57,708 nt of DNA, from positions 1 through 57,708 of the forward strand of contig VGBK01000004.1 in the NCBI GenBank assembly GCA_016870535.1. The letters are read 5' to 3'. Under the pieces are notes generated by a model. That model did not search any database, was not told the origin of the DNA, and was given only the letters and a program-made list of their open reading frames with translations. Below, piece by piece: positions 6,429 through 49,105 of the stretch; position 1 is the first letter of the stretch, and every line of letters begins with the position of its first letter. A program made the translations under genes and the position numbers. The DNA comes from Actinomycetota bacterium (GTDB taxonomy: Bacteria > Actinomycetota > Acidimicrobiia > Spongiisociales > UBA11373).

Positions 6429-6461
6429 AGAAGGTGCCGGGGTCGGACCCGGCAGAGAAGC

Positions 6462-6470
6462 ATCATAGCA
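6462..6470 (-). promoter_or_regulatory. Putative extended -10 promoter for rpsO-pnp (TGCTATGAT)
   Basis: The minus strand reads TGCTATGAT about 34 nt upstream of the rpsO ATG. This is the only AT-rich hexamer in the 90-nt gap. Confidence 0.35.
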
Positions 6471-6518
6471 GGTCAGCCCGCCAACCCCGCCCCCGGCCGG
6501 CCGCACCCCGGCGGGGCT

Positions 6519-7577: not shown

Positions 7578-7688
7578 TTGGCATTCCCGGGTGGAGGGCC
7601 CCCCAAAGGTGGCGCTCTCGCTCCCGCGTTTCAAGGGGGCTGCGCGCCGGGCGAACCGCGCCCGGGCAGAATGGGCGGTGGAGGCAAG

Positions 7689-16765: not shown

Positions 16766-16777
16766 CCGTCCTTCCTC

Positions 16778-16808
16778 AAAGAAAGAGTGGGCACCAGGGC
16801 GCCCACTC
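16778..16808 (-). terminator. Canonical intrinsic terminator/attenuator hairpin directly upstream of rimP
   Basis: The minus strand reads GAGTGGGCGCCCTGGTGCCCACTC followed by TTTCTTT. The stem is 8-10 bp and the T-tract ends 12 nt before the rimP ATG. Confidence 0.65.
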
Positions 16809-16888
16809 GTCGCGTGCGTTCGGTTGCCCCCATTCTATCAGAGGCGGCGCCGCCGGGCAGGGCCGGGGGACCGATCGCGCGCGACGGG

Positions 16889-18595: not shown

Positions 18596-18640
18596 GGGGC
18601 ACCTCGGCGTGAATCGGCGGCGGAGGATAGCCGCAACCGC

Positions 18641-20901: not shown

Positions 20902-22077
20902 CTAGCCGCAGCTACCGACCGCCTCCCGGGCCGCCGCCCGGGCCTCGGCGTCGACCGCCAGCACCTCGGCGACGCTCCCTAGATGACGCCGGGGGATGGC
21001 CTCCAGCACCCGCTCGACGACCCCGGGGATGCGGGTGAAGCCGATGCGCCCTTCCAGGAACGCCCCGACGGCCACCTCGTCGGCGGCATTGAGCACGGCG
21101 GGAGCCGACCCCCCGGCCCGGCCTGCCTCGTACCCGAGACGCAGGCAAGGGAAGGCAACCGGGTCGGGCGCCTCGAAGGTGAGGCTGCGGCCGGCCAGGT
21201 CCAGGAGCGGGGCCATCCCGGGCGCGCGGCGGGGGAAGGTCAGGGCGTACTGGATGGGGATCCTCATGTCGGGAGGCCCGAGTTGTGCCTTCAGGGAACC
21301 GTCGACGAACTCCACCAGGCTGTGCACCACGCTCTGCGGGTGGATCAGCACCTCGATGCGCTCGTAGGGCAGGCCGAACAAGAGGTGGGCCTCGATGACC
21401 TCGAAGGCCTTGTTCATCAGCGTGGCGGAGTCGACGGTGATGCGGCGGCCCATGCGCCAGGTGGGATGAGCCAGCGCCTCGGCCACCGTCACCCGCTCCA
21501 GGTCGGCTCGGGCCCGCCCCAGGAAAGGGCCCCCGGAAGCCGACAGCACGATCCGGCGCACGAAGGCGATATCCTCGCCCGCCAGGCACTGCAGCAGGGC
21601 AGAATGCTCCGAATCCACCGGAAGCAGTTCCCCCCCGCCCCGGCGCCGGGCTGCCTCCACCACCGGCCCGCCCGCCACCAGGCTCTCCTTGTTGGCCAGG
21701 GCGAGACGGTTCCCTGCGTCGAGGGCAGCCACCGAGGCGGCCAGCCCGGCGGACCCCACCACCCCGTTGAGCACCACGCACCCCGGGGTGCCGGCCAATT
21801 CGATCACCCCCTCCGCACCGAAGCAAACCCGCCTGCCCAGTTCCGCGACGAAGCGCTCCCTCTCCTCTCCGGTGGGGGCGGCCACCGCCACCGTCGCGCC
21901 GGGGTGGGCGGTCCCGAGGCGCAGCAGGGAGGCGGAGCCCCGGGCGGCCGCCAGACCCCGCACCTCCATCCCCAGGCCGGCGGCCACCTCGAGCGCCTGC
22001 CGCCCGATGGAGCCGGTGGCCCCGAGGACGATCAGCGGCCTCAGCGCAGCAGCCCCATCGTCTCGAAGAGCACCCAC
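20902..22077 (-). CDS. dxr: 1-deoxy-D-xylulose 5-phosphate reductoisomerase
   Basis: LGATGSIG, LANKESLV and a conserved C-terminal domain. The GTG at 22077 overlaps the cdsA 3' end by 37 nt, and no downstream ATG/GTG precedes the GATGSIG motif. Confidence 0.93.
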   Translation of the reverse strand: MGALRDDGAAALRPLIVLGATGSIGRQALEVAAGLGMEVRGLAAARGSASLLRLGTAHPGATVAVAAPTGEERERFVAELGRRVCFGAEGVIELAGTPGCVVLNGVVGSAGLAASVAALDAGNRLALANKESLVAGGPVVEAARRRGGGELLPVDSEHSALLQCLAGEDIAFVRRIVLSASGGPFLGRARADLERVTVAEALAHPTWRMGRRITVDSATLMNKAFEVIEAHLLFGLPYERIEVLIHPQSVVHSLVEFVDGSLKAQLGPPDMRIPIQYALTFPRRAPGMAPLLDLAGRSLTFEAPDPVAFPCLRLGYEAGRAGGSAPAVLNAADEVAVGAFLEGRIGFTRIPGVVERVLEAIPRRHLGSVAEVLAVDAEARAAAREAVGSCG

Positions 22078-25000
22078 GCCGCGGGCAAGACGAACAGGAA
22101 GGCGTCGATGCGGTCGAGGATGCCGCCGTGACCCGGGAGGATCGACCCCATGTCTTTGATCCCCAGGCTGCGCTTCACCATCGACTCGGCCAGGTCGCCC
22201 AGCGGCGCCATCACCGCCACCACGAGCCCCAGAATGGCCCCGGCCCGCACGCCCACCTCGTCGAAGAGGTAGCCGGCCGCCACCGCGGCGCCTATGCCCA
22301 GGATCACTCCCCCGGCCAGTCCCTCCCAGGTCTTCTTGGGCGAGAGCACCGGGGCCATGGGCCGCGCCCCCCAGGCCCGGCCGGCGAAGAAGGCGCCCAC
22401 GTCGGCGGCGATCACGGTGAAGGCGACGGCCAGAACCAGCACGCGGAACTGGGGTGAGGCGGCAATTAGGAAGGCAAACCCTGCCGTCCCCGTGACCCAG
22501 AGCATGCCCAGGATGGTGAGCCCCCCATTGGTCAGCGCATCACGGCGCCGGGGCGCGAAGGCGTAGTAGAAGAACGACAGCACCGTGACCGCCACTACCG
22601 CGGTGGGGATGGCCACCGGGCCGTAGAACCACATCCCCACCAGCAGGCCTACGCCCCCCGGAAAGCCGAACAGGGCCAGGGGCTGGTATCCGCTGCGCCG
22701 CAGCGCGCCGTAGAACTCGCCGAGGCCGAGCACGGCCAGCAGCCCCACGAATCCGGCGAAGAACTCACCCCCCACCCAGAGGGAGCCGAGCAGCAGGGCG
22801 GCCAGCACCATTCCGGTCGCCACCCGCACCGGCAGATCGGAGCGGGGCCGCGCCGCCACCTCCTCGTCCGCTCCGAGGTGGGCCACATCTTCGAACCCGA
22901 CCACGCCGGACTCCAGCCCGAGCATGGGTGCGGCCAGGGCCTGCAACTCGGTCTCGCCGGTATCGGCTGCGGCCACCTCCTCGGCCAGGCCGCGGTGCTC
23001 CATGGTCACCGCCCCCGCCAGGGTCTCCTCGCTGATTGGACCCGGGCCGGAGGGCGGCCTCTCGAAGTCGAAGACCGGAGGGGGCATCTCCCGGGTGCGC
23101 CCGGTGACACCGGCGCCCTCCCCAGGAGCGGCAGCGTCGGCCACCGGAAGAACCGGCCCATATCGAGGGGGATCCTCCGGCGCCCGCCCCGCCGACGGCC
23201 GGGGCGGCGGCATCCCCGGCTCGGGGAAGGCCTCCCACCCCGCCGCCTCCAACTCCCCGGCCCCCAACCCGCCGGACCCGGCCCCGGCAGCCTCCTCCGT
23301 CTCGTCCCTCAACTCCGCCAGGGGCTCCCCGGGCTCCGGGAAGGGCACCCAACCCGCCTGGCGGAAGCCCTCTTCCTCCCAGTCGTCCTCGTCCCCCTCC
23401 TCGTCCTCCTGTTGCCCCTCAGCCCGATCCCCCTCCCCGGAGACCTTCGCGGCGCCGCCCTCTTCTCCCCACGCCGGCATCGCCGGCGGCAGCTCCGGCG
23501 GCCGGGCAGCGGCCGCGCTCCCCGACGGCTCTCCGTCGGGAACGCCCGGCCATCCCGGCTCTTCTGCCCACTCCTCCTCCCAATCCTCCTCGGGGAGAGT
23601 GACGGGCGGGACCGCAACCTCATCCTCGTCGATCTCGGCGTACCACCCGGCCGCCGGGGGCTCTGCCTCGCCGGACCACTCGGCTTCGCCCCACTGGCCT
23701 CCGTCTTCTTCCTCCCCCGGGGCCGCCTCGCCTGCACCCGCGGGTACCGGGAAACCCTCCGCCACCCCCGTTGCGCCCTCCGATCCGCCCGCCTGCCAGG
23801 CATCCCAGGCGGCTTCGGTGGCGATCGCGTCGTCGGCCCCGGCGTCCGGTCCCGGCTGCGGCAGGAGTTCCTCCACCGCCGGGGGCAGCCACGGCGGCGG
23901 CCGCGCCGCCTCCTCCTCATCGGCCACCCCGGCCTGTGCCGGCTCCACCTCGCGGCGGCGGCCCAGCCAGCCGCGCCGACGCGGCTTCATGGGAGATGCT
24001 GTCGGCACGGCTTCCGCCTCCGGTGCTGCCGCGGTCGCCGCAGGCTCCGCCGCCGGTGCTGCCGGGGTCGCCGCGGGTTCCGCCGCCGGGGGCAGCGCCG
24101 ACCCGGCCGCAGGTGAGGCTGGGGCCGGCGCTCCCTCCACGAAGGCCAGCCACTCATCCACCTCGGCCTCTACCTCGGCCTCAACCTCAGCCCCCACCTC
24201 AGGCTCCACCTCAGGCTCCACCTCAGCCCCCACCTCAGCCCCCGCCGCCTCGAGGTCTTCGCCGGCCTCGGGCAGGGCCGAGTCCGGGGAGCCGGGCACC
24301 GGCCCGGTGGGCGTCGCCGGCGCCGGGGGCTCCCAGGCCGCCAGCACCAGTCCCGAAGCATCTGGGCCGGCGGGGGCACCGTCGTCGGAGGCGGTCTCCT
24401 CCGGCCACGACTCCGACGCGACGCCTCCCTCCCGGGCTCCGGTGGCCTCCTCGCTGCCCGGCCGCCCCCATTCGCCGGGCTCCCCCGTCGGCTCGACATC
24501 GGCGAGGGCAGGAACCCAAGGCAGCGTGGGCAGATCCTCCTGCACCGGACCCGCCTCGCCGGGTTCGATGACCTCCACCTCCGGCGCTTCGCCCAGCTCG
24601 GCCAGCAGGGCAGAGGCCGCCTGCTCGAGATCCGCTACCGCCGTCGAGAGACCGGGCCCCGCATCCTCTTCCGGGAGCTCCTCGGGCGCCTCACCACCCT
24701 CGCCGGTCTGAACCGGGGGCAGGGGCGGGCCCATCGCCGACTCGCCCGGCACGGCCGGGAGAGGCGGTGGCGCCGCCGTCGCGCTCAACAGATCCAGCGG
24801 GATCAGTGCGGCTGCCGCCGGGGCCGCCTTCGGCTCCTCGCCGCCCTCCCCGGGCTCCTCGCCGCCCTCCCCGGGCGGCGCCGCGGTCGAGGGACCCGCG
24901 GAGAGATCCGCGGAGACCAGAGACGCCGGAGGCGCCGCCGCCGGGGCCGCCGCCTCCCACCACGGGAAGACCGGGGCGGCCGGCGCCGCCTCCTCCTCTG

Positions 25001-25388
25001 CATCGGGCTCGTCAACCCACTCGACGGTCCGGAGCGCCGCCTCCGGATCGAGAGGCTCCTCCCTCTGCCCCTCCTCCGCCTCGAGTCCGGCTGCCCACCA
25101 GCCGGCAGGCTCCGCCTCGTCCGAGGGGAGAGGCACGGTCTCTCCTCCCCCCCCCGGTTCCGCCACCCCTTCGCTCCCTGAGCCGCCCCGACGCGCCCCG
25201 CGTCCGAAGCGACGCCGGCGCGAGGAGCGCCCCGGAGTCTCCTCCGGACCGACCGGCGTGGCGGCGTCCTCCGCCTCGCCGGAGGCTTCGGAGGACCATC
25301 CGGGATGCCAAGGATCACCCGGATGAGGGTGGAACTCCTCGTCGTCTCCTCTGCGGCTCACCGTTCCTCCTCGCCGCCCCGCCCGCAC
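22041..25388 (-). CDS. cdsA: Phosphatidate cytidylyltransferase (CdsA) fused in frame to an ~820-aa acidic low-complexity N-terminal region
   Basis: The C-terminal ~290 aa is canonical CdsA (multi-TM, SxxKRxxGxKDxGxxxPGHGGxxDRxD = SMVKRSLGIKDMGSILPGHGGILDRID). The ORF stays open upstream to a GTG at 25388, which directly abuts the frr stop. A canonical-length start would be the ATG at 22925. Confidence 0.8.
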   Translation of the reverse strand: MRAGRRGGTVSRRGDDEEFHPHPGDPWHPGWSSEASGEAEDAATPVGPEETPGRSSRRRRFGRGARRGGSGSEGVAEPGGGGETVPLPSDEAEPAGWWAAGLEAEEGQREEPLDPEAALRTVEWVDEPDAEEEAAPAAPVFPWWEAAAPAAAPPASLVSADLSAGPSTAAPPGEGGEEPGEGGEEPKAAPAAAALIPLDLLSATAAPPPLPAVPGESAMGPPLPPVQTGEGGEAPEELPEEDAGPGLSTAVADLEQAASALLAELGEAPEVEVIEPGEAGPVQEDLPTLPWVPALADVEPTGEPGEWGRPGSEEATGAREGGVASESWPEETASDDGAPAGPDASGLVLAAWEPPAPATPTGPVPGSPDSALPEAGEDLEAAGAEVGAEVEPEVEPEVGAEVEAEVEAEVDEWLAFVEGAPAPASPAAGSALPPAAEPAATPAAPAAEPAATAAAPEAEAVPTASPMKPRRRGWLGRRREVEPAQAGVADEEEAARPPPWLPPAVEELLPQPGPDAGADDAIATEAAWDAWQAGGSEGATGVAEGFPVPAGAGEAAPGEEEDGGQWGEAEWSGEAEPPAAGWYAEIDEDEVAVPPVTLPEEDWEEEWAEEPGWPGVPDGEPSGSAAAARPPELPPAMPAWGEEGGAAKVSGEGDRAEGQQEDEEGDEDDWEEEGFRQAGWVPFPEPGEPLAELRDETEEAAGAGSGGLGAGELEAAGWEAFPEPGMPPPRPSAGRAPEDPPRYGPVLPVADAAAPGEGAGVTGRTREMPPPVFDFERPPSGPGPISEETLAGAVTMEHRGLAEEVAAADTGETELQALAAPMLGLESGVVGFEDVAHLGADEEVAARPRSDLPVRVATGMVLAALLLGSLWVGGEFFAGFVGLLAVLGLGEFYGALRRSGYQPLALFGFPGGVGLLVGMWFYGPVAIPTAVVAVTVLSFFYYAFAPRRRDALTNGGLTILGMLWVTGTAGFAFLIAASPQFRVLVLAVAFTVIAADVGAFFAGRAWGARPMAPVLSPKKTWEGLAGGVILGIGAAVAAGYLFDEVGVRAGAILGLVVAVMAPLGDLAESMVKRSLGIKDMGSILPGHGGILDRIDAFLFVLPAAWVLFETMGLLR
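24010..24090 (-). repeat. ~2.4 x 33-nt in-frame tandem repeat
   Basis: GCTTCCGCCTCCGGTGCTGCCGCGGTCGCCGCA followed by GGCTCCGCCGCCGGTGCTGCCGGGGTCGCCGCG and a partial third copy. Encodes the AAEPAAT(P/A)AAP repeat. Confidence 0.85.
24159..24242 (-). repeat. 7 x 12-nt in-frame tandem repeat (xACCTCrGCyCC)
   Basis: Units CACCTCGGCCTC, TACCTCGGCCTC, AACCTCAGCCCC, CACCTCAGGCTC x2 and CACCTCAGCCCC x2. On the minus strand they encode GAEVGAEVEPEVEPEVGAEVEAEVEAEV. Confidence 0.9.
24832..24873 (-). repeat. Perfect 2 x 21-nt tandem repeat
   Basis: GGCTCCTCGCCGCCCTCCCCG occurs twice. Encodes GEGGEEP GEGGEEP. Confidence 0.9.
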
Positions 25389-38842: not shown

Positions 38843-40699
38843 TTAGCCGGCCCGCGGCGGCGCCGGGGCCTCTGCCGGCTCTTCGTAGAGGGTGGTACGC
38901 CGGGCGGGCACCCGCCCGGCAGCACGGATGATCCGCTCCAGGTCATCGGGCGCGGCAGCCGTGCCGTGAGCGGCCCCGGCGGCTCGCGAGATGCGGTCGC
39001 CCATGAGGGTGCCCCCCAGGTCGTTCACCCCGGCCTGCAGCAGGGCCGCCGCCCCGTCCCACCCCAGCTTCACCCACGACGCCTGGATGTTGCCCACCAG
39101 GCCGTCGAGTGCCAGGCGAGCCACGGCGTGGAGCAGCACCACTTCGTCCCAGGTGGGCCCCGGCCGGGCCCGTCCCTCGCGATACAGCGGAGCCTCCATG
39201 TGAACGAAGGGCAGCGGCACGAACTCGGTGAACCCCCCGGTCTGCGCCTGGAGGCGGCGGATCACCTCGAGGTGACGCGCCCAGGAGGCGGGGGAATCGA
39301 CGTGGCCGAACATGATGGTCGCCGTGGTCGGCATGCCGAGGCGGTGGGCCGCAGCCACCACCTCGACCCACCGAGCGGTGTCGATCTTGCTCGGGCACAG
39401 CACCCGGCGCACCTCGTCGTCGAGGACCTCGGCGGCCGTGCCGGGCAGGCTGTCCAGGCCCTCGGCGCCCAGGCGACGCAGGAAGTCCGGGATCGACATC
39501 CCGAGAGTCCGGGCTCCGTGCCAGACCTCCAGAGGGCTGAAGGCGTGCAGGTGGAGGGAGGGGGCCGCCGCCTTGACCGCGGCCGTCAGCGCGAGGTAGA
39601 AGTCGCCGGTGACGGCCCGGGGAACGCCCCCTTGCAGGCAGATCTCGGTGGCCCCGGCCGCTGCGGCCTCGCCGGCTTGCCGCCCGACCTCCTCGACGGC
39701 CATGAGATAGGGCTCCTCCCCCCGCCCGCCGCCCTGCGAGAAGGCGCAGAAACCGCAGCGGTAGGTGCACCGGTTCGTGAAGTTGATGTTGCGGTTCACC
39801 ACATAGGTGACGGTCTGCCCCTTGGCCCGGCGGCGCAACTCGTCGGCGGCGGCGGCCACCGCCTCGACCTCCGCCCCACGCGCCCCGAGCAGCAGTTCGA
39901 CCTCGGCCGCGCCGGGACGGCGGCCGGCGAGGGACCTCTCCAAGACACGGGCCAAGCCCGGGCGCATCGATGCTTCGCCCGGCTCCCCCGCCGCCCAGGC
40001 CGGGTCCGCCCAGGCCGCCGACAGGCGGCCCGCCGGGGGCGGGATGGCCGTGCTCCGGCCCGGCGCCCACGGAACGCGGGGGCGCACCACCCCCGAGGCA
40101 TCGATCTGGTCCAGGTAGGCCTTCAGCAGCGGGCCGGCGAGCGAGGCAGCGGCCCGGTCGTAGGCCACGCCCGGCGGCAGGGCGCCGCGCTCCACCAGCA
40201 GGTGCCCCGCCAGGGCCGTCCGCAGCTCCCCGAGGCGCTCCGTGTCCCAGTCACGCAGGAGCAGGTCGGTCGCTCCGGCTTCCACCGCCGCCACTGCCTG
40301 GCTCACCGTGTCGACGAACACCGACACCGCCGCCCCGGCGGAGCGGGCGGCGAGGCCGGCAGAGGCTACCCGGCTGCGCCCGGTGCGCAGGTACGCCGCC
40401 CGGGTGCGGGCCAGCGCCTCCCGCACGACGGGCCCCCCGCCCCGATCCAGCACGGTGAGGCGCCACCCGGGGATGCCGGCGGCCGCCAGGGACACCGCCC
40501 CGGATGGAGCCGCCACCCAGGCGGCCACCCCCACCGCCTGCGGTCCCCCGACCGGCAGGAGGCCGGCGCCCAGGATGGCCGCCCGTTCGGTCTCCCCGGG
40601 AGCAGCCGCCTCCAGCGTCGTAGTCCCTTCGCGGCGGCAGGTCTCCGCCCGGGCGGGGGTCACCGACCGGACGGGGCGCAGCCGACAGAAGGTGATCAA
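38843..40699 (-). CDS. cofH: FO synthase subunit 2 (CofH, radical SAM) with a 244-codon in-frame upstream region of unknown function
   Basis: The core from the ATG at 39967 (MRPGLARVLERSL..VTYVVNRNINFTNRCTYRCGFCAF..) is full-length CofH (374 aa). The frame stays open, and protein-like, up to a TTG at 40699 that overlaps the cofG stop (TTGA). Confidence 0.85.
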   Translation of the reverse strand: MITFCRLRPVRSVTPARAETCRREGTTTLEAAAPGETERAAILGAGLLPVGGPQAVGVAAWVAAPSGAVSLAAAGIPGWRLTVLDRGGGPVVREALARTRAAYLRTGRSRVASAGLAARSAGAAVSVFVDTVSQAVAAVEAGATDLLLRDWDTERLGELRTALAGHLLVERGALPPGVAYDRAAASLAGPLLKAYLDQIDASGVVRPRVPWAPGRSTAIPPPAGRLSAAWADPAWAAGEPGEASMRPGLARVLERSLAGRRPGAAEVELLLGARGAEVEAVAAAADELRRRAKGQTVTYVVNRNINFTNRCTYRCGFCAFSQGGGRGEEPYLMAVEEVGRQAGEAAAAGATEICLQGGVPRAVTGDFYLALTAAVKAAAPSLHLHAFSPLEVWHGARTLGMSIPDFLRRLGAEGLDSLPGTAAEVLDDEVRRVLCPSKIDTARWVEVVAAAHRLGMPTTATIMFGHVDSPASWARHLEVIRRLQAQTGGFTEFVPLPFVHMEAPLYREGRARPGPTWDEVVLLHAVARLALDGLVGNIQASWVKLGWDGAAALLQAGVNDLGGTLMGDRISRAAGAAHGTAAAPDDLERIIRAAGRVPARRTTLYEEPAEAPAPPRAG

Positions 40700-41856
40700 A
40701 GGCCCATCCCTCCCTGCTGAGGGCCGAGAGCGTAACCCTGCTCATCCGCGGAGGCCCGCAGGCGGCGGGACAGGGCCGGGTCCAGCCACTCGGCCCGAAG
40801 GAACTCCGGGTACACCGGAAGGCGGGGCACCAGGCGGAACCCGGCCGCCTCGGTGCGGTGCCGCAGTTCGTCCAGGTGCGGCCACGGCGCCTCCGGGTTC
40901 ACCCAGTCGGGAGTGAGGGGCGATACCCCACCCCAGTCGTTGACCCCGGCCTCCAGGTACACCTCGAAGCGCTCGGTCAGGTTGGGCGGCACCTGCAGGT
41001 TCATCTCCGGCCCCAGGACCCAGCGGGCCACCGCCACGACTCGGGCCAGGTACTGCGGCGTGGGCTCGGCGGCGCCACCCATCGGCGTTCCCGGCTTGGC
41101 CCGGAAGTTCTGCACGATCACCTCCTGCACCGCCCCGGTCGCAGCGGCCAGGGAGGCCAGAGAGAAGAGGCTGTCGGCCAGTTCCTCCGGGGTCTCCCCG
41201 ATGCCCACCAGCACACCGGTGGTGACCGGCACGCGCTGCGCCGCCATGGCCCGCAGCGCGGCCAGGCGACGCGCCGGGTCCTTGTCGGGGCAGCCGTGGT
41301 GGGGCATCCCCCGCTCCATGAGGCGGGGCGAGGCGTTCTCCAGCATGAGGCCCATGGAGGCGCACCACGGGCGGAGGGCCGCCACCTCGGCGGCGGACAC
41401 CACCCCGGGGTTGGCGTGCGGGAAGAGGGTGGTGGCCTCCACGACGGCGCGCGCCACCCGGGCGGTGTACTCCACCGTGGAGGCGCAGCCGTGGCGCGCC
41501 AGGAAGGCGCGCGCTTCCGGCCACCGATCCTCCGGGCGGTCGCCCGAGGTGATGAGCGCCTCGGTGCAGGCGGCGGCCGCGCCGGCCCGGGCGATGGCCA
41601 GCGCCTCCTCCGGCTCCAGGTAGCGCCCGCCGGCCCCGGGCGGGGCGGCGAAGGTGCAGTAGGCGCAGCGGTCGCGGCACAGCGTGGTCAGGGGGAGGAA
41701 CACTTTGGGCGAGTAGGTGACCACCCGTCCTTTGCCCTCATCCCGCAGGCGCCGGGCGGCGGCACACAGCGGAGCCGTCTCCCGCTCGCCGCGCAGGAAC
41801 TCCACGGCCAGGACCGGGTCGGGGGCGGGGAAGGCCACGACCGGCGACGCTATCAC
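40696..41856 (-). CDS. cofG: FO synthase subunit 1 (CofG, radical SAM)
   Basis: VTYSPKVFLPLTTLCRDRCAYCTF, and the rest is CofG-like. Trimmed to the GTG at 41856 (alternative 41838), because the track ORF N-terminus overlaps the divergent GAPDH-like gene. Confidence 0.88.
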   Translation of the reverse strand: MIASPVVAFPAPDPVLAVEFLRGERETAPLCAAARRLRDEGKGRVVTYSPKVFLPLTTLCRDRCAYCTFAAPPGAGGRYLEPEEALAIARAGAAAACTEALITSGDRPEDRWPEARAFLARHGCASTVEYTARVARAVVEATTLFPHANPGVVSAAEVAALRPWCASMGLMLENASPRLMERGMPHHGCPDKDPARRLAALRAMAAQRVPVTTGVLVGIGETPEELADSLFSLASLAAATGAVQEVIVQNFRAKPGTPMGGAAEPTPQYLARVVAVARWVLGPEMNLQVPPNLTERFEVYLEAGVNDWGGVSPLTPDWVNPEAPWPHLDELRHRTEAAGFRLVPRLPVYPEFLRAEWLDPALSRRLRASADEQGYALGPQQGGMGL

Positions 41857-41926
41857 GCCCTCCGCGACAAGCCCCGGCGAGGCCGTAAAGTACGGCCGAT
41901 TCCCCGCAAGCCACAAGAGAGGAACG

Positions 41927-42955
41927 ATGACGGACGGAAAGACCCGGGTAGGCCTGATGGGCTTCGGGCGGATCGGCCGCAACGTCTTCCGCCAACTGGA
42001 GGACCACCCCCGCATCGAGGTGGCGGCCATCGTCGACATCGCCGACCCCAAGGCCCTCGTCTACCTGCTCAAGTACGACACGGTGTTCGGCCGGTTCCCC
42101 AAGAAGGTGGGCCTCGACGCCGCCGGCAACCTGGTGGTGGGTGAGCGGAGCGTCCCCATCCTCGCCGCCCGCGACCCCGGCGACGTCGATTGGGCCGCCT
42201 ACGGGGTGGACGTGGTGGTGCAGGCCACCCGCAAGCATCGCACCGCCGCCGAGTGCCGCCTCCATCTCGACAAGGGCGCCAAGCGGGTGGTGCTCGCCTC
42301 CACCCCCGAGGATCCCGGCGATATGGACACCCTCCTGATGGGGGTGAACGACGAGGTGCTCGGCCCCGAAGACACCATCGTCGCCCTCGGGTCCAACACC
42401 TCCAACGCGGTGGCCCCGGTGCTGAAGGTGCTCCACGAGCACTTCGGAGTGGAGTGGGCCCTGTTCACCACCGTGCACGCCATCACCAACGAAGCCCGCC
42501 TGGCCGACGTCCCCGGGACCTCCCTGCGGGGCAGCCGGTCGGCGGCGGAGAACATCATCCCCGGGCCCACCAACTCTCCGGAGATCGTGGAGCGGGCCCT
42601 GCCGGCCCTGAAGGGACGCATCGCCGCCATGGCCCTCAACGTGCCGGTGCAGGACGGCTCCAACGTGGACCTGGTGGCCTTCCTCAGGCGGGAAGCCGCC
42701 GCCGCCGAGATCAACGAAGCCCTGAGCGCCGCGGCGGCCGACAGCACGGTGCTGGCCTACACCGACGAGCCGATCGTCTCGTCGGACATCATCGGCAACA
42801 GCTACTCGGCCACGGTGGACGGCCTGGCCACGCTCGTTCTGGGCGGGACCATGGCCAAGCTGGTGATCTGGTACGACAACGGCTGGGGCTACGCCGCCCG
42901 GGCCGTCGAACTGATCGAGAAGCTGGCAGCCTTCGACCGCAAAGGGGTGAAGTGA
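41927..42955 (+). CDS. GAPDH-family paralog lacking the catalytic cysteine (predicted pseudoenzyme or neofunctionalised)
   Basis: GFGRIGRN NAD motif and WYDNGWGY are retained. However SNASCTTNC is replaced by GSNTSNAVA (Cys to Asn, Cys to Ala), STGAAKA by GPTNSPE, and FRVP by LNVP. AGAGAGGA SD before the ATG. Confidence 0.85.
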   Translation: MTDGKTRVGLMGFGRIGRNVFRQLEDHPRIEVAAIVDIADPKALVYLLKYDTVFGRFPKKVGLDAAGNLVVGERSVPILAARDPGDVDWAAYGVDVVVQATRKHRTAAECRLHLDKGAKRVVLASTPEDPGDMDTLLMGVNDEVLGPEDTIVALGSNTSNAVAPVLKVLHEHFGVEWALFTTVHAITNEARLADVPGTSLRGSRSAAENIIPGPTNSPEIVERALPALKGRIAAMALNVPVQDGSNVDLVAFLRREAAAAEINEALSAAAADSTVLAYTDEPIVSSDIIGNSYSATVDGLATLVLGGTMAKLVIWYDNGWGYAARAVELIEKLAAFDRKGVK

Positions 42956-43971
42956 TGATCCGGGTAGCCATCAACGGCTTCGGGCGCATCGGCCGGGCCG
43001 TCTTCCGCGTCATCTCCCAGCGCCCGGCGGCGGGCATGGAGATCGTGGCGGTGAACGACCTGGCCGACGACGAGATGACGGCCTACCTCCTGAAGTACGA
43101 CACCGTCATGGGCACCTTCCCCGGCGAGGTCGCAGTGGAAGACGGCTACCTGGTGGCGGGCGGGCATCGAGCCAAGCTCCTCACCTTCATGGACCCGGCC
43201 GAGCTCCCTTGGAAGGAGCTGGAGGTGGACGTAGCCATCGAGTCCACCGGGGCGTTCCGTTCCCGCGCCCAGGTGGCCAAGCACCTGGAAGCCGGGGCCA
43301 AGCGGGTGATCCTGACCGTGCCGGCCAAGGACGAGCTGGACGCCACCGTGGTCCTCGGCGTCAACGACGCCGACCTGGGCGCCGACGCCCGGATCGTCTC
43401 GAACGCCTCGTGCACCACCAACTGCCTGGCTCCCGTCGCCAAGGTCCTGGACGACGCCTTCGGGCTGAAGCGCGGGGTAATGACCACGGTGCACGCCTAT
43501 ACCAACGACCAGCGCCTCGCCGACGTCCCCCACAAGGACTTCCGGCGCAGCCGGGCGGCGACGGTGAACATCATCCCCACCACCACCGGCGCGGCCAAGG
43601 CCGTGGGCAAGGTGCTGCCGCAGCTTCAGGGCAAGCTCGACGGCATGGCCATGCGCGTGCCGGTGCCCAACGGGTCCACGGTGGACCTGGTGGCCGAGCT
43701 GGGCCGTGCCGTGACCGTCGAGGAGGTCAACGCGGCGGTCCGGCAGGCTGCCGAAGGCCCGCTGGCCGGCATCCTCCAGTACACCGAGGCGCCGCTGGTG
43801 TCCACCGACATCATCGGCAACCCGCATTCGAGCATCTTCGATGCGGGCTCCACCATCGTGCTGGGCGGCGACAAGATCAAGGTCATCGCCTGGTACGACA
43901 ACGAGTGGGGCTACTCCCAGCGCGTGGTGGACCTCATCGAGCGGCTGGCCGCCCTTCCCGCGCCGGCGTAG
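42955..43971 (+). CDS. gap: Glyceraldehyde-3-phosphate dehydrogenase (canonical type I)
   Basis: INGFGRIGR, IVSNASCTTNCLAPVAKV, TVHAYTNDQ, TTTGAAKAVGKV, MAMRVPVPNGS and WYDNEWGYS. The ATG overlaps the upstream TGA by 1 nt. Confidence 0.96.
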   Translation: MIRVAINGFGRIGRAVFRVISQRPAAGMEIVAVNDLADDEMTAYLLKYDTVMGTFPGEVAVEDGYLVAGGHRAKLLTFMDPAELPWKELEVDVAIESTGAFRSRAQVAKHLEAGAKRVILTVPAKDELDATVVLGVNDADLGADARIVSNASCTTNCLAPVAKVLDDAFGLKRGVMTTVHAYTNDQRLADVPHKDFRRSRAATVNIIPTTTGAAKAVGKVLPQLQGKLDGMAMRVPVPNGSTVDLVAELGRAVTVEEVNAAVRQAAEGPLAGILQYTEAPLVSTDIIGNPHSSIFDAGSTIVLGGDKIKVIAWYDNEWGYSQRVVDLIERLAALPAPA

Positions 43972-43989
43972 CGCGCCGGCGGCAGATCC

Positions 43990-44037
43990 CTGCGCCCGGG
44001 CCCGGTGGGTGCCCGGGCGCAGGCGCGTTTGGCTAGT
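43990..44037 (+). terminator. Intrinsic terminator after gap
   Basis: 12-bp perfect stem CTGCGCCCGGGC/GCCCGGGCGCAG with a 9-nt loop, followed by GCGCGTTTGGCTAGTTT. Confidence 0.6.
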
Positions 44038-44046
44038 TTCGGCGGC

Positions 44047-45498
44047 GTGACCGACTTCGAGCGGATCTTCCACCCCCGCCGGATGGCCCTCGTTGGGGTG
44101 TCCTCCGAGGGCGGCGCCGGCTTCGCCAACGGCATGCTGCTCGCCTGCCGGGCCATCGGCTTCTCCGGCGAGATCCTGGCGGTGAACCCCAAGGGCGGGT
44201 CGTTCGCCGGGCACACGATCTTCCGCAGCCTCGACGAGATCCCCGGCGAGATCGACTTCGCCGTCATCGCCGTGCCCGCTCCCGCCGTTCCCGCGGCGCT
44301 GGAGGCCTGCCGCCGCAAGGGGGCGGCCGGCGCCGAGGTGCTCACCGCCGGCTTCACCGAGACCGGCACTCCCGAAGGCCGGGCCCTCGAACAGCAGATC
44401 AGGGAGATCGCCGCCCGCGGCATCCGGGTGGTGGGCCCCAACTGCTTCGGGATCTACTGCCCGGCCTCCGGCCTGACGCTGCTGCCCGGGGCCGACCTAT
44501 CGAGGGAGAGCGGGCCGGTGGCCTTCCTCTCCCAGAGTGGCGGCATGTCGATCGACCTGGCCCACCTTGGGGGATGGATGGGCCTGCGCTTCAGCAAGGT
44601 GGTTTCCTTCGGCAACGGGGCCGACCTGCGCGAGGCCGAGTTGCTGCACTACCTGGCCGACGACCCCGAGACCGGGGTGATCGCCATGTATGTGGAGGGG
44701 GTGGCCGACGGCGGCGACTTCTTCCAGGCCATCCGCGCCGCCGCGGCGCGCAAGCCGGTGGTGGTGCTCAAGGGAGGCCTCTCAGAGGCCGGGGGGCGGG
44801 CGGTGGTGGGCCACACCGCCTCCATGGGGGGAAGCCGGGCCATCTGGTCGGGGGTGCTGCGACAGGTGAACGCCACCAGCGTCGCCAGCTTGGAGGAGTT
44901 GGCCCAGGCCTGCCTGGCCTTCTCGCATCTGCCGGCGCGGGTATTCCGCGGCATCTGCGCCGTCGGCGGCGGCGGCGCTCTGGGGGCGGCGGCCGGCGAC
45001 GCCGCCGAAGCGTACGGCATCAGGTTGCCGGCGTTCGCGTCGGACCTGCGGGCCCGCCTCGAGGCCATCCTGCCCCGCCCCGGGTCGAGCGCGGGCAACC
45101 CCGTCGACGTAGCCAATCCCTTCGTGCCGCCGGCAGTGCTGGGGCAGGTGCTGCGCCTGGCCGCCGAGGACGACCGGGTGGACCTGCAGGTGTTGATCTC
45201 GCTGCTCTACCACTACAAGTCCCAGGCGCGAGCCATAGGGGCAGCAGTGGCCGACATCACCCCGTTCGCCGAGTTGGCCGAGACGGTGGCTGCGGCGGCG
45301 GCCGACACGGGGAAGCCGGTGGTGATGGTGCTCCCCGACCTCATGCGGGGCCCCGAGAACCTCGACCTCGCCGCCATGATGGCCCGGGCCCGGGAGGAGT
45401 TCACCCGCCGGGGTGTGCCCGTCTTCGGAGCCGTCGGCCAGGCGCTGCGGGCGATCGGCCACGTCAACGCCTACTACGGGAGGCGCCGTGCCCGATGA
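44047..45498 (+). CDS. ADP-forming acyl/acetyl-CoA synthetase, alpha-type subunit (CoA-binding + CoA-ligase domains)
   Basis: VALVGVS..NP CoA-binding fold, GPNCFG, SQSGG and the phosphohistidine loop GHTASMGG. The GTG at 44047 is preferred over the track start 44005, which lies inside the terminator hairpin. Confidence 0.85.
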   Translation: MTDFERIFHPRRMALVGVSSEGGAGFANGMLLACRAIGFSGEILAVNPKGGSFAGHTIFRSLDEIPGEIDFAVIAVPAPAVPAALEACRRKGAAGAEVLTAGFTETGTPEGRALEQQIREIAARGIRVVGPNCFGIYCPASGLTLLPGADLSRESGPVAFLSQSGGMSIDLAHLGGWMGLRFSKVVSFGNGADLREAELLHYLADDPETGVIAMYVEGVADGGDFFQAIRAAAARKPVVVLKGGLSEAGGRAVVGHTASMGGSRAIWSGVLRQVNATSVASLEELAQACLAFSHLPARVFRGICAVGGGGALGAAAGDAAEAYGIRLPAFASDLRARLEAILPRPGSSAGNPVDVANPFVPPAVLGQVLRLAAEDDRVDLQVLISLLYHYKSQARAIGAAVADITPFAELAETVAAAAADTGKPVVMVLPDLMRGPENLDLAAMMARAREEFTRRGVPVFGAVGQALRAIGHVNAYYGRRRAR

Positions 45499-46201
45499 CC
45501 GCATCACCACCGTGGCCCTCCTCCTGGAACAGGCAGCGGCGCGCGGGCAAAGCACGCTGGCGGAGCACGAGGCCAAGCAGGTGCTGGCCGCCTACAGCCT
45601 GCCCGTCACCCGGGAGATCCTGGTCACGACACGGGCAGAGGTGGCGCCCGCAGCGGGGGCCATCGGCTACCCCGTGGCCGTGAAGGCGTCGTCCCCCGAG
45701 ATTCCCCACAAGAGCGAGCAAGGCCTGGTGCGGCTCGGCCTGGCCGACGAAGCCGCCGCCCTCCAGGCCTTCGACGCCGTCGCCTCCGCCCTGGCCGGGC
45801 GCGGCGGAGGAGTGCTGGTGCAGGAGATGATCACCGGCCGACGGGAACTGGCCATGGGCCTGGTGCGCGACCCCGACTTCGGGCCCTGCGTGATGTTCGG
45901 CCTGGGCGGCATCTTCACCGAGATCCTGGGCGACGCCGTCTTCCGCCGCGCCCCCCTGGAGCAGGCCGACGCCGACGACATGATGGCGGAGATCCGGGGG
46001 CGGGAGATGCTCGGCGCCATCAGGGGCCTGCCTGCTGCCGATCGCGACGCGTTGGCCGGCATGCTCATCGCCCTCGGGCAGATCGGCCTCGACCACGAAG
46101 GAGTCGCCGAGATCGACCTGAACCCGGTGATCCTGGCCGGGCCTCGGCCTGTGGTGGCGGACGCGCTGATCGTGCTGCGCCCCGAACTGCCCGTCCTCTG
46201 A
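45488..46201 (+). CDS. ADP-forming acyl-CoA synthetase, beta-type subunit (ATP-grasp domain)
   Basis: LAEHEAKQVLAAYSLPV, YPVAVKASSPEIPHKSEQGLV and EIDLNPV. The GTG at 45488 overlaps the alpha-subunit stop by 11 nt. Confidence 0.85.
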   Translation: MPDDRITTVALLLEQAAARGQSTLAEHEAKQVLAAYSLPVTREILVTTRAEVAPAAGAIGYPVAVKASSPEIPHKSEQGLVRLGLADEAAALQAFDAVASALAGRGGGVLVQEMITGRRELAMGLVRDPDFGPCVMFGLGGIFTEILGDAVFRRAPLEQADADDMMAEIRGREMLGAIRGLPAADRDALAGMLIALGQIGLDHEGVAEIDLNPVILAGPRPVVADALIVLRPELPVL

Positions 46202-47974: not shown

Positions 47975-49105
47975 GTGACCAAGGAGCCCTGGCTCTCCCT
48001 CGTCGAGAGCGACCCCCGGCCTTGGCTGCTGGAGAGCGGCGAACCGGCGGCGCGCTGGGTGGCTCTCACCCACCTGCACGACCTGCCCGCCGACCATCCC
48101 GAAGTGGCGGCCGCCCACGAAGCGGTGCGGGCCGACCCCGGCACCCGCGACCTCATCGAGCGCCTGGGCCGCTGGGGAGACGACACCGGCGCCTCCGGCC
48201 ACCACAGCCCCGCCTATCAGCCCAACCTGCTGCACCTGCTAGCCGACATGGGCCTGCAGGCGGGCGACGATCCCCAGGTCGATGCGGTGGTCGACGGCAT
48301 GCTCGAGCACCAGGACGAGGCGGGCCGCTTCCAGGCCTTCGGCCGTCTCCGGGGCGCCCCCGGACCCGTCTGGTCTTCGCTCCTCTGCGACACCCACGCC
48401 ATCACCGAGGTCCTGATCCGCTTCGGCCGGAGCGGGCATCCCTCGGTGACCCGGGCGGTGCAGCGCATCGCAGCGGACCTGGCGCCGAGCGCCCAAGGAG
48501 ACGCCTGGCCCTGCCTTCCCGAGCGCCTCACCGGCTTCCGCGGCCCCGGCCGCCGGAACGACTTCTGCCCCCAGGTGACCCTGGAAGCCCTCCGCCTGTT
48601 CGCTCGCCTTCCCCGCCCACAACGGCCTCCGGGCCTCGTGGGCGTGGCCCGGGTCGCGGTACGCGCCTGGCGGGTGCGGGGCGAGGAGCAGCCTTACATG
48701 TTCGGCCACGGGTACCGCTTCAAGACGGTGAAGTGGCCTGCCTTCTGGTACGACCTGCATTGGGTGCTGGACACCGTGGGCCGCTATCCGGGCCTGTGGC
48801 GGGCTCCGACTGCCGACCCCGGCGACCGGCAGGACCTGGCGGAGATGCTGGCCTGCCTGGTGGCCTACAACTTCGGCCCTTCGGGCCGGGTCACCCCGCG
48901 GTCCTGCTACCGGGGTTTTGAGGCGTTCAGCTTCGGCCAGAAGAGACGGCCCTCCCCCTTCGCCACCGCCCGCCTGCTGGCCGTGGTGCGCCGGTTCGGC
49001 CCCTTGGCCGCCGCCGCCGCCGCCATAGACGTGCTGGCCTTGCCGAGTTCGAAGGGCGGGAGCGGCCGGCCCCGGCCCCCGCCCGCCGCGCCCGAGAGCA
49101 ACTGA
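47975..49105 (+). CDS. Hypothetical protein (possibly alpha/alpha-toroid, prenyltransferase/terpenoid-cyclase-like fold)
   Basis: 376 aa with real-protein composition. Trp/aromatic-rich helical-repeat pattern, and GC-rich third codon positions. No motif that I can name with certainty. Confidence 0.6.
   Translation: MTKEPWLSLVESDPRPWLLESGEPAARWVALTHLHDLPADHPEVAAAHEAVRADPGTRDLIERLGRWGDDTGASGHHSPAYQPNLLHLLADMGLQAGDDPQVDAVVDGMLEHQDEAGRFQAFGRLRGAPGPVWSSLLCDTHAITEVLIRFGRSGHPSVTRAVQRIAADLAPSAQGDAWPCLPERLTGFRGPGRRNDFCPQVTLEALRLFARLPRPQRPPGLVGVARVAVRAWRVRGEEQPYMFGHGYRFKTVKWPAFWYDLHWVLDTVGRYPGLWRAPTADPGDRQDLAEMLACLVAYNFGPSGRVTPRSCYRGFEAFSFGQKRRPSPFATARLLAVVRRFGPLAAAAAAIDVLALPSSKGGSGRPRPPPAAPESN

What the first reader, a model, noticed from the sequence alone, without database searches (positions are those of the whole stretch)
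41927..43971. Tandem GAPDH pair: a catalytic-Cys-less paralog overlapping canonical gap by 1 nt
The upstream 342-aa gene is clearly GAPDH-fold. It keeps GFGRIGRN, TVHA.TN and WYDNGWGY. By eye alignment to the adjacent canonical Gap and to E. coli GapA, these catalytic or binding positions are changed:
- The nucleophile motif SNASCTTNC becomes GSNTSNAVA (Cys149 to Asn, Cys153 to Ala).
- The phosphate-site loop S-TGAAKA becomes GPTNSPE.
- Arg231 (FRVP) becomes Asn (LNVP).

Its only Cys sits in AAECRLHLDKGAKRVV, away from the active site.

Its TGA overlaps the ATG of a fully canonical gap by 1 nt (TGATG). The pair has its own SD and ends in a strong hairpin terminator, so the two are very likely co-expressed stoichiometrically.

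Inference: this looks like a dead-enzyme partner for GAPDH (a heterotetramer or regulator), or a neofunctionalised NAD-binding protein.
Basis: partly seen in the sequence, partly recalled or inferred. Interest (0 to 1): 0.8.

Follow-up and report, generated by a model that had tools for sequence, protein, structure and literature searches.

The report
Cysteine-less GAPDH partner gene beside gap
Next to an ordinary glycolysis gene (gap) sits an old, well-preserved sister gene that has lost the enzyme's reactive cysteine; the two genes stay joined in many bacterial phyla, so this much-studied enzyme may have an undescribed non-catalytic partner.

Summary
Gene A (41927-42955, 342 aa) has the GAPDH fold, with Cys149->Asn, Cys153->Ala, Arg231->Asn and a remodelled phosphate loop. 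Its TGA overlaps the ATG of a canonical gap (42955-43971) by 1 nt.

It is not a decaying pseudogene.
- All 120 closest homologues (>=63% identity, Acidimicrobiia MAGs) carry Asn149.
- dN/dS is 0.04-0.33, the same range as the adjacent gap.
- The former active-site columns are the most conserved part of the protein.

The pair belongs to a much larger module. In 76 of 77 evaluable loci from at least 7 phyla, a paralogue with Asn231 and W[YF]DNGWGY lies directly upstream of a canonical gap. Stop and start overlap in 56 of those 76 pairs. Both copies share an S-loop core, RLADVP, that is absent from 103 other GAPDH cluster representatives. Gaps with this loop have the partner; Gaps without it do not.

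Most non-Acidimicrobiia members keep Cys149. It was lost at least 8 times, to N, S, V, A, P, I or G.

Best reading: a non-catalytic, probably NAD(H)-binding subunit or regulator that works with the co-translated Gap, probably as a heterotetramer. The physical complex is inferred, not shown. I found no description of it in the literature searched.

The parts
41917..41923 (+). Shine-Dalgarno-like GAGAGGA, 3 nt before the ATG of gene A
   Evidence: Read from the sequence. Not tested functionally.
41927..42955 (+). Gene A: 342-aa GAPDH-fold paralogue without the catalytic Cys (the 'upstream partner')
   Evidence: Start supported by 342-aa homologues with 100% coverage.
41960..41983 (+). GFGRIGRN dinucleotide-binding motif, kept. 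It is preceded by Leu-Met in place of the canonical Ile-Asn.
   Evidence: Invariant in 120/120 homologues.
42221..42241 (+). QATRKHR, which replaces ESTG.F. (Glu94->Gln, Ser95->Ala, Gly97->Arg, Phe99->His) in the NAD adenosine-pocket strand. Specific to the subclade closest to the window.
   Evidence: Q 120/120, R97 118/120, H99 117/120.
42389..42409 (+). GSNTSNA, the former nucleophile motif: Cys149->Asn157 (AAC, 42395-42397) and Cys153->Ala
   Evidence: Asn in 120/120 close homologues and in all 32 Acidimicrobiia-type loci.
42470..42514 (+). TVHAITN (His176 and Thr179 kept) followed by the S-loop core RLADVP (42497-42514)
   Evidence: RLADVP is present in 80/80 upstream partners, 73/74 downstream Gaps and 0/103 other GAPDH representatives.
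42563..42583 (+). GPTNSPE, the remodelled phosphate-binding ('new Pi') loop (Gly209->Asn, Ala210->Ser)
42635..42646 (+). LNVP: Arg231->Asn238 (42638-42640). This is the family-wide hallmark.
42869..42892 (+). WYDNGWGY: Asn313 and Tyr317 kept, Glu314->Gly. Family-wide hallmark.
42942..42957 (+). SD-like AAGGGGTGA inside the end of gene A, plus the TGATG stop/start overlap (42953-42957): a translational-coupling junction
   Evidence: Overlaps of -4 or -1 occur in 56/76 pairs elsewhere.
42955..43971 (+). Gene B: canonical type I gap, 338 aa, with SNASCTTNC, His176, Arg231, WYDNEWGY and the same RLADVP S-loop (43513-43530)
   Evidence: (TIGR01534 439.3 > 367.2).
43983..44039 (+). GC-rich hairpin after gene B, followed by GCGCGTTTGGCTAGTTT: a possible U-poor terminator
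   Evidence: -59.9 kcal/mol, z = -3.4. Not called by the terminator scan.

Best explanation
Origin and spread. Gene A is the Acidimicrobiia form of an old, widespread GAPDH paralogue. It arose by tandem duplication of a gap that carried an RLADVP S-loop, and it has stayed immediately upstream of that gap ever since.

What changed. The upstream copy lost Arg231 and Glu314 and remodelled the phosphate loop in the whole family. In Acidimicrobiia it also lost the nucleophile (Cys149->Asn) and Arg195. It therefore cannot carry out the thioester chemistry of GAPDH.

What was kept. It retains the Rossmann motif, Asp32, Asn313, Tyr317, the residues that make inter-subunit hydrogen bonds (Tyr46, Ser/Thr48, Asp186, Asp/Glu276) and the S-loop.

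Proposed mechanism. It most likely still binds NAD(H) and still oligomerises. It is made in fixed proportion to Gap by translational coupling. It then works with Gap as a non-catalytic partner, most likely in a mixed tetramer such as A2B2, in which two sites are catalytic and two are regulatory or ligand-sensing. That would be a hard-wired version of the half-of-sites behaviour known for homotetrameric GAPDH.

Shown: the residue changes, the fold, purifying selection, the conserved gene pair and overlap, the shared S-loop, and co-divergence.
Inferred: NAD(H) binding, the hetero-oligomer, and the regulatory role.
For: Loss of catalytic residues:
- Cys149->Asn, Arg231->Asn and the phosphate-loop changes are seen in rigorous alignments. 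PMC12041015 describes Cys149 as the thiohemiacetal nucleophile and Arg231 as part of both the Ps and Pi sites.

Not a pseudogene:
- Asn149 is present in 120/120 homologues and Asn231 in 118/120.
- dN/dS is 0.04-0.33, against 0.06-0.25 for the adjacent gap.
- The Asn-type clade is monophyletic in 99/100 bootstraps.

Obligate pairing:
- 76 of 80 loci, from Acidimicrobiia, Acidobacteriota, Eisenbacteria, Krumholzibacteriota, Desulfobacterales, Binatia and Planctomycetota, have a canonical gap directly downstream. Three of the four exceptions are contig ends.
- Stop/start overlap is -4 in 38 pairs and -1 in 18 pairs, of 76.
- Reverse test: Gaps with the QRLADVP loop have the partner upstream in 5 of 5 evaluable metagenome loci. 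About 70 Gaps with other S-loops have none.

Shared history:
- Upstream and downstream copies are each monophyletic (100/100 and 95/100) and are sister groups.
- Their pairwise distances co-vary: r = 0.73, Mantel 0/999.
- The RLADVP S-loop, an R-axis interface element, is invariant in both partners and absent from 103 other GAPDH representatives.

Cys149 is dispensable at family level:
- At least 8 independent Cys/non-Cys changes, to N, S, V, A, P, I or G. The downstream Gap always keeps Cys.

Context:
- In other phyla the gene directly downstream of the pair is pgk, pfk or a glycerate-kinase-like gene. The partnered Gap is therefore likely the housekeeping glycolytic enzyme.
Against: - No direct evidence of a complex. 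AF2-multimer was not available, and apparent fusion proteins in the database are frameshift read-throughs.
- The former active-site columns of the Cys-less clade are far more conserved than the rest of the protein: 0.26 vs 1.16 bits, with 0 of 10,000 random column sets as low. A pure scaffold would not need that. It points to ligand binding or new chemistry.
- One subfamily (120 Acidobacteriota-type homologues) keeps Cys149, His176, Thr179, Arg194/195/197, Ser148, Thr150 and Thr208 invariant. There the partner may well be an active enzyme, so the ancestral role may have been catalytic.
- In the window's subclade, Gly97->Arg and Phe99->His alter the adenosine pocket, so NAD binding is not certain.
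- One locus (L075) has the partner without a gap within 6 kb.
- I could not check whether these genomes hold another gap elsewhere.
Confidence: 0.5

Rival explanations
1. Neofunctionalised enzyme or small-molecule-binding protein. Under this reading the remodelled pocket (Ser148-Asn149-Thr150-Ser151-Asn152, His176, Thr179, Thr208-Asn209-Ser210, Asn231) does new chemistry. One example would be direct hydride transfer without a thioester, as in other proteins with the GAPDH-like C-terminal domain. Alternatively it binds a metabolite. Either way it acts as its own homo-oligomer, and the linkage to gap reflects only a shared pathway.
For: - The pocket is extremely conserved in the Cys-less clade.
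- His176 is kept in 120/120 homologues.
- New invariant residues appear (Gln94, Arg97, Lys98, His99).
- The Cys-bearing subfamily keeps a complete catalytic dyad but has an altered Pi loop (Gly209->Trp/His/Phe/Tyr) and Asn or Cys at 231. This resembles the way non-phosphorylating Epd differs from Gap in its anion sites (PMC12041015).
Against: - Residue 149 is N, S, V, A, P, I or G in different lineages. No single replacement chemistry explains that.
- A merely pathway-linked enzyme would not be expected to keep its stop/start overlap with gap across so many phyla.
- Nor would it be expected to share an otherwise unique S-loop with gap.
- No other gene of a candidate pathway is conserved next to the pair.
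Confidence: 0.27
2. Free-standing regulator or moonlighting protein. Under this reading it would be, for example, an NAD(H)/redox sensor, or a protein that binds PGK, RNA or another partner rather than Gap. It would be co-expressed with gap only so that the two are regulated together.
For: - The NAD-binding motif and Asp32 are kept.
- GAPDHs are known for moonlighting (general knowledge).
- The downstream neighbours differ between phyla.
Against: - The shared RLADVP interface loop and strict adjacency to one particular Gap subfamily point to Gap itself as the partner.
- The protein has no extra domain or extension.
Confidence: 0.12
3. Still a working phosphorylating GAPDH that uses another nucleophile (Cys110, or a residue supplied by a neighbouring subunit).
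For: Only the overall fold and the retention of His176.
Against: - Cys110 sits at a buried L/I/V position and is Cys in only 21 of 32 Asn-type loci.
- Arg231 and Arg195 are also lost.
- The protein scores below the TIGR01534 cut-off.
Confidence: 0.02
4. A decaying duplicate (pseudogene) of the adjacent gap.
For: Loss of catalytic residues. The upstream copy also evolves about 1.36 times faster than the downstream copy.
Against: - The reading frame is intact in about 200 homologues.
- dN/dS is 0.04-0.33, equal to that of gap.
- The substituted residues are themselves invariant.
- The clade spans sequences down to about 50% identity.
Confidence: 0.01

Closest known systems
Type I phosphorylating GAPDH (GapA; EC 1.2.1.12; TIGR01534; e.g. 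B. stearothermophilus 1GD1)
   Same: - Same two-domain fold (TM 0.88) and 43% identity.
- Same GxGxxG motif, Asp32, His176, Thr179, Asn313 and Tyr317.
- Same inter-subunit hydrogen-bond residues.
   Different: - No Cys149 and no Arg231 (and no Arg195).
- Altered phosphate loop, and Glu314->Gly.
- Scores below the family cut-off.
- Cannot form the thioacyl intermediate.
Dead-paralogue partners ('prozymes') such as trypanosomatid AdoMetDC prozyme and the deoxyhypusine synthase paralogue (PMC6221367, PMC3663545)
   Same: An inactive paralogue of an enzyme, kept under selection together with the active copy. The proposed action is through a hetero-oligomer.
   Different: - In those systems the complex and the activation are shown biochemically, and the active copy is impaired on its own.
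- Here neither point is tested.
- The downstream Gap looks fully canonical.
- Many family members outside Acidimicrobiia keep the nucleophile.
Chloroplast GapA/GapB A2B2 heterotetramer
   Same: Two GAPDH paralogues that assemble into one tetramer. This is the precedent that GAPDH can be heteromeric.
   Different: - Both plant subunits are catalytic.
- GapB is regulatory through a C-terminal CP12-like extension with a Cys pair.
- The protein here has no extension and no catalytic Cys.
Erythrose-4-phosphate dehydrogenase (Epd/GapB of E. coli)
   Same: A GAPDH paralogue in which the Ps and Pi anion sites are not fully conserved.
   Different: - Epd keeps the catalytic Cys and His, and Arg231.
- Epd is not coupled to gap.
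- The protein here scores 241 bits against a 530.55 cut-off.

Membership tests
Type I phosphorylating GAPDH (TIGR01534 / EC 1.2.1.12) | Gp_dh_N plus Gp_dh_C fold | tested here: met
   Pfam E = 3.7e-28 and 1.4e-41. AF2 model matches 1gd1/1npt at TM 0.88.
Type I phosphorylating GAPDH (TIGR01534 / EC 1.2.1.12) | Score at or above the curated equivalog cut-off | tested here: not met
   302.6 bits against a 367.2 cut-off. Gene B scores 439.3. Other upstream partners score 275.7-381.5.
Type I phosphorylating GAPDH (TIGR01534 / EC 1.2.1.12) | Nucleophile Cys149 | tested here: not met
   Asn157 (AAC) aligns with Cys149. Asn is present in 120/120 homologues.
Type I phosphorylating GAPDH (TIGR01534 / EC 1.2.1.12) | His176 general base | tested here: met
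   His184 in TVHAITN; 120/120.
Type I phosphorylating GAPDH (TIGR01534 / EC 1.2.1.12) | Arg231 of the Ps/Pi anion sites, and the Thr208-Gly209 phosphate loop | tested here: not met
   Arg231->Asn (118/120), Gly209->Asn and Ala210->Ser. Roles of these residues per PMC12041015 and PMC2662861.
Type I phosphorylating GAPDH (TIGR01534 / EC 1.2.1.12) | NAD-binding GxGxxG, Asp32, Asn313 | tested here: met
   All are invariant. However, Gly97->Arg and Phe99->His change the adenosine pocket. Actual binding was not tested.
Type I phosphorylating GAPDH (TIGR01534 / EC 1.2.1.12) | G3P + NAD+ + Pi -> 1,3-BPG activity | not testable with these tools
   Needs an enzyme assay.
Pseudoenzyme partner of an active paralogue (prozyme type) | Paralogue lacks an essential catalytic residue | tested here: met
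Pseudoenzyme partner of an active paralogue (prozyme type) | Maintained by purifying selection | tested here: met
   dN/dS 0.04-0.33. Invariant substituted residues.
Pseudoenzyme partner of an active paralogue (prozyme type) | Strict co-occurrence and co-expression with the active paralogue | tested here: met
   76/77 evaluable loci. 56/76 overlapping stop/start. Reverse test 5/5. Co-transcription itself was not measured.
Pseudoenzyme partner of an active paralogue (prozyme type) | Physical hetero-oligomer with the active paralogue | not testable with these tools
   No multimer prediction was available. The evidence is indirect only (shared RLADVP S-loop).
Pseudoenzyme partner of an active paralogue (prozyme type) | Changes the activity or regulation of the active paralogue | not testable with these tools
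   Needs biochemistry.
Chloroplast-type GapB regulatory subunit | C-terminal extension with a regulatory Cys pair; catalytic Cys kept | tested here: not met
   342 aa with no extension. A single Cys, at a buried position.
Erythrose-4-phosphate dehydrogenase (TIGR01532) | Score above cut-off; catalytic Cys | tested here: not met
   241.1 bits against a 530.55 cut-off; no Cys.
ArsJ-associated GAPDH (NF033735) | Score above cut-off; adjacent arsJ | tested here: not met
   257.9 bits against a 450 cut-off. The neighbours are cofG/cofH and an ADP-forming acyl-CoA synthetase.

The most novel reading that the evidence does not exclude
Many bacteria, across at least 7 phyla, run glycolysis with an obligate heteromeric GAPDH. 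It would be built from one catalytic subunit and one diverged subunit, the latter catalytically dead in Acidimicrobiia and in at least 7 other lineages. This would be a hard-wired two-active-site tetramer in which the second subunit has become an NAD(H)- or metabolite-sensing regulatory site.
Probability: 0.35. Interest if true: 0.8.

Novelty: new variant of a known kind. Interest (0 to 1): 0.66.

Why it matters
GAPDH is among the best-studied enzymes and is treated as a homotetramer in bacteria. A conserved, translationally coupled, non-catalytic sister subunit would add a new layer of control at a central step of glycolysis. It would be found in large, mostly uncultured groups: Acidimicrobiia, Acidobacteriota, Eisenbacteria, Krumholzibacteriota and Desulfobacterales.

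It would also give a natural experiment on half-of-sites reactivity and NAD cooperativity, because the nucleophile was lost repeatedly and independently.

There is a practical point too. These proteins are annotated as 'type I GAPDH' or simply 'GAPDH'. Metabolic reconstructions therefore count two GAPDHs where there is probably one enzyme plus a partner.

Tried and rejected
- Rosetta-stone test. I searched with the two proteins concatenated. The roughly 670-aa 'fusions' (P0390, P0391, P0402, P0418, P0395) contain Arg-rich out-of-frame linkers. They are frameshift read-throughs into the overlapping gap, not evidence of a complex. P0400 and P0405 remain unclear. The related locus L087 has two separate genes with an 8-nt overlap.
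- Conserved neighbourhood. Beyond the pair itself, nothing is conserved across phyla. cofG/cofH adjacency is limited to Acidimicrobiia.
- RNA elements. There are no Rfam or tRNA hits in the window and no sigma-70-like promoter match.
- Literature. Six full-text searches found no description of a bacterial Cys-less GAPDH partner or of this tandem pair. A 2025 review of aldehyde-dehydrogenase superfamilies mentions pseudoenzymes only for ALDH16.
- Clustering at 50% identity. This collapsed the whole Asn-type clade into one representative, so it gave no count of the family's size.
- Exact-membership bootstraps. These were low because floating cluster representatives moved. I replaced them with separation tests.
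- Multimer modelling. It was not possible with the tools available.
- Whole-genome check for a second gap.
Full report
**1. The observation**

Gene A runs from the ATG at 41927 to the TGA at 42953-42955 and encodes 342 aa. Gene B runs from the ATG at 42955 to the TAG at 43971 and encodes 338 aa. The junction reads TGATG, so the two genes overlap by one base.

Both proteins carry the Pfam domains Gp_dh_N and Gp_dh_C. Against NCBIfam's type I GAPDH model (TIGR01534, cut-off 367.2 bits), B scores 439.3 and A scores only 302.6. A and B are 46% identical.

I aligned A to B. stearothermophilus GAPDH (1GD1) with HMMER and made a 124-sequence MAFFT alignment.
- Cys149->Asn (codon AAC at 42395-42397) and Cys153->Ala.
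- TSTGAAK->GPTNSPE.
- Arg231->Asn.

Further changes are Glu94->Gln, Ser95->Ala, Gly97->Arg, Phe99->His (motif QATRKHR), Arg195->Gly and Glu314->Gly.

Kept residues are GFGRIGR, Asp32, His176, Thr179, Arg194, Arg197, Thr208, Asn313 and Tyr317.

A 2025 review (PMC12041015) describes Cys149 as the thiohemiacetal nucleophile, His176 as its base, and Arg231 as part of both the Ps and Pi anion sites. The chemistry that defines GAPDH therefore cannot occur in A.

The single Cys of A (Cys110) sits where other GAPDHs have L, I or V, and it is Cys in only 21 of 32 related loci. It is not a substitute nucleophile.

An AlphaFold2 model (pLDDT 87.7; low confidence only in the S-loop) matches GAPDH structures at TM 0.88.

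SD-like sequences precede both starts. The second one (AAGGGGTGA) lies inside the end of gene A.

A strong GC-rich hairpin follows gene B (-59.9 kcal/mol, z = -3.4). Its U-tract is poor and the terminator scan does not call it.

**2. Not a pseudogene**

The 120 best database homologues (63-100% identity; where a source names them, the names are Acidimicrobiia or 'Actinobacteria' MAGs) all have Asn at position 149 and Ala at 153. At 231, 118 of 120 have Asn. The new residues Gln94, Ala95, Arg97 and Ser210 are themselves nearly invariant.

Nei-Gojobori dN/dS for gene A between related loci is 0.04-0.33. The adjacent gap gives 0.06-0.25 for the same locus pairs.

In the Asn-type clade, the 16 former active-site columns have a mean entropy of 0.26 bits. 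The mean over all columns is 1.16 bits, and none of 10,000 random column sets was as low.

**3. The pair is a widespread, conserved module**

I scanned one genome per species (GTDB) with family-derived patterns (W[FY]DNGWGY and SR[AS][AG]AENII). At least 588 loci were found and the best 80 were kept. By record title they come from:
- Acidimicrobiia/Actinomycetota
- Acidobacteriota (Thermoanaerobaculia, Holophagales, Polarisedimenticola)
- Ca. Eisenbacteria
- Ca. Krumholzibacteriota
- Desulfobacterales
- Binatia
- Planctomycetota

In 76 of the 80 loci, a canonical gap (SNASCTTNC, MRVP, WYDNEWGY) lies immediately downstream on the same strand. Three of the four exceptions end at a contig edge. 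Only L075 truly lacks a downstream gap.

Stop and start overlap by 4 nt in 38 pairs and by 1 nt in 18 pairs. The other 20 pairs have gaps of 3-88 nt.

Flanking genes are not conserved across phyla. In Acidimicrobiia, cofG and cofH lie divergently upstream, as in the window. Elsewhere the gene after gap is pgk, pfk or a DUF4147/MOFRL glycerate-kinase-like gene. This suggests the partnered Gap is the housekeeping glycolytic enzyme.

**4. Family anatomy and history**

Family-wide hallmarks of the upstream copy are:
- Arg231->Asn
- Glu314->Gly
- Thr151->Ala/Ser
- Gly209->Asn/Trp/His/Phe/Tyr
- Ile-Asn->Leu-Met before GFGRIGR
- Asn31->Val/Ser/Ala

In neighbour-joining trees of 274 sequences:
- The upstream copies separate from the downstream Gaps and reference GAPDHs in 100/100 bootstraps.
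- The downstream Gaps separate in 95/100.
- The Asn-type clade separates in 99/100.
- Upstream and downstream clades are sisters in the best tree. The only additional members of that joint clade are 17 cluster representatives, which by their motifs look like either the upstream or the downstream type.

Pairwise distances of the two genes co-vary (r = 0.73; Mantel 0/999). The upstream copy evolves about 1.36 times faster.

The simplest history is one old tandem duplication followed by joint inheritance.

**5. The nucleophile is optional in this family**

Outside Acidimicrobiia, most upstream copies keep Cys149. A 120-member Acidobacteriota-type subfamily keeps Cys149, His176, Thr179, Arg194/195/197, Ser148, Thr150 and Thr208 invariant. 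In that subfamily the protein may still be an enzyme with altered anion sites.

Across 98 upstream-type sequences, residue 149 is C (44), N (35), S (6), V (5), A (3), P (2), I (2) or G (1). Parsimony on the tree needs at least 8 Cys/non-Cys changes. The downstream Gap always has Cys.

Repeated loss to chemically unrelated residues, with the gene then retained, says that the function shared by the family does not require thioester catalysis.

**6. Evidence for a functional link to Gap itself**

The S-loop (residues 178-201) forms the R-axis subunit interface and lines the neighbouring subunit's NAD site. This is established structural knowledge for B. stearothermophilus GAPDH.

Its core sequence RLADVP is present in 80/80 upstream copies and 73/74 downstream Gaps. 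It is present in 0 of 103 other GAPDH cluster representatives.

As a reverse test, I collected 80 metagenome loci using the downstream Gap as query. Among these:
- Every Gap with QRLADVP and enough upstream sequence had an upstream partner (5 of 5). One more pair had a variant loop.
- About 70 Gaps with other S-loops had no such partner.

Residues known to make inter-subunit hydrogen bonds in B. stearothermophilus GAPDH are kept in both copies. These are Tyr46, Ser48, Asp186 and Glu276. That list comes from my own knowledge of the mutagenesis literature and was not checked here.

**7. Interpretation**

Shown:
- A GAPDH-fold protein without the nucleophile or Arg231.
- Strong purifying selection on it.
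- Translational coupling to a particular Gap subfamily, co-inheritance with it, and a unique interface loop shared with it.

Inferred:
- It still binds NAD(H), since the Rossmann motif, Asp32, Asn313 and Tyr317 are kept. However, QATRKHR alters the adenosine pocket in the window's subclade.
- It assembles with Gap into a mixed tetramer and acts as a non-catalytic, regulatory or ligand-sensing subunit.

I put this at about 0.5.

The main rival, at about 0.27, is a neofunctionalised enzyme or ligand-binding protein acting on its own. The very high conservation of the remodelled pocket favours this. The variety of residues at position 149 and the coupling to gap argue against it.

A free-standing regulator (about 0.12), a cryptic active GAPDH (0.02) and a decaying pseudogene (0.01) are less likely or refuted.

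**8. Comparison with what is known**

In fold, the protein is a member of the GAPDH superfamily. It fails three defining features of type I GAPDH: the curated cut-off, Cys149 and Arg231.

It resembles the 'prozyme' type of dead-paralogue partner in concept (AdoMetDC and deoxyhypusine synthase of trypanosomatids; PMC6221367, PMC3663545). The defining complex and activation are untested here.

It differs from chloroplast GapB, which is catalytic and carries a C-terminal extension. It also differs from Epd and from ArsJ-linked GAPDH, where it scores far below the cut-offs.

No solved structure is closer than about 43% identity, and all PDB hits are canonical GAPDHs.

Six full-text searches found no description of this family or of the tandem pair. 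Public annotations call these proteins 'GAPDH', 'type I GAPDH' or 'GAPDH NAD-binding domain-containing protein'.

**9. Verdict**

I rate it a new variant of a known kind: a pseudoenzyme or diverged paralogue partnered with its active sister, here for a central glycolytic enzyme.

Interest is about 0.66. The pattern is clear and apparently undescribed, and it makes a testable prediction of heteromeric GAPDH. The mechanism rests on genomic inference only.

Noticed in passing
L100:2941-4987 and L104:2272-4315: A second, different kind of tandem GAPDH pair. The upstream copy has GLNGFGRTGR and WFDNELGY but keeps Cys149 and Arg231. Both copies share an S-loop QRLLD[YF]P.
   Followed up: partly
Proteins P0390, P0391, P0402, P0418, P0395 (database entries): Apparent 440-680-aa 'fusions' of the partner and Gap. 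They are frameshift read-throughs with Arg-rich junk linkers, an artefact favoured by the -1/-4 overlap. P0400 and P0405 could be real in-frame fusions but were not resolved.
   Followed up: partly
L087:1366-3382: A low-GC lineage also has an Asn149 partner (SLGSNTSIAAGP). It overlaps its gap by 8 nt (ATGAGTAA), and that Gap has a variant S-loop (QALAETT).
   Followed up: partly
window 38843-41700 (-): cofH (radical SAM plus CofH_C) and a cofG-like radical-SAM gene, i.e. F420 FO synthase, lie divergently upstream of the pair. The same arrangement is found in 12 Acidimicrobiia loci.
   Followed up: partly
window 44005-46201 (+): A split ADP-forming acyl-CoA synthetase follows the hairpin: CoA_binding/Succ_CoA_lig, then ATP-grasp_5. 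The listed GTG start at 44005 overlaps the hairpin, so the real start may be the ATG near 44084.
   Followed up: no
window 47975-49105 (+): A 376-aa ORF with coding-like GC3 (0.90) and no Pfam match.
   Followed up: no
Proteins P0056, P0087, P0060: NCBI names some Cys-less members 'type I glyceraldehyde-3-phosphate dehydrogenase' and others 'GAPDH NAD-binding domain-containing protein'. The annotation is inconsistent and the first name is probably wrong.
   Followed up: partly
window 6288-9497 (+), 16289-19534 (+), 22041-25388 (-): Three ORFs of more than 1,000 aa picked by a GC3-based gene sketch. 16289-19534 has an odd codon-position GC pattern (GC1 0.91 > GC3 0.77) and may not be a real gene.
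   Followed up: no
L075:4413-5426: The only evaluable locus where a (Cys-bearing) upstream-type gene has no gap within 6 kb downstream.
   Followed up: no
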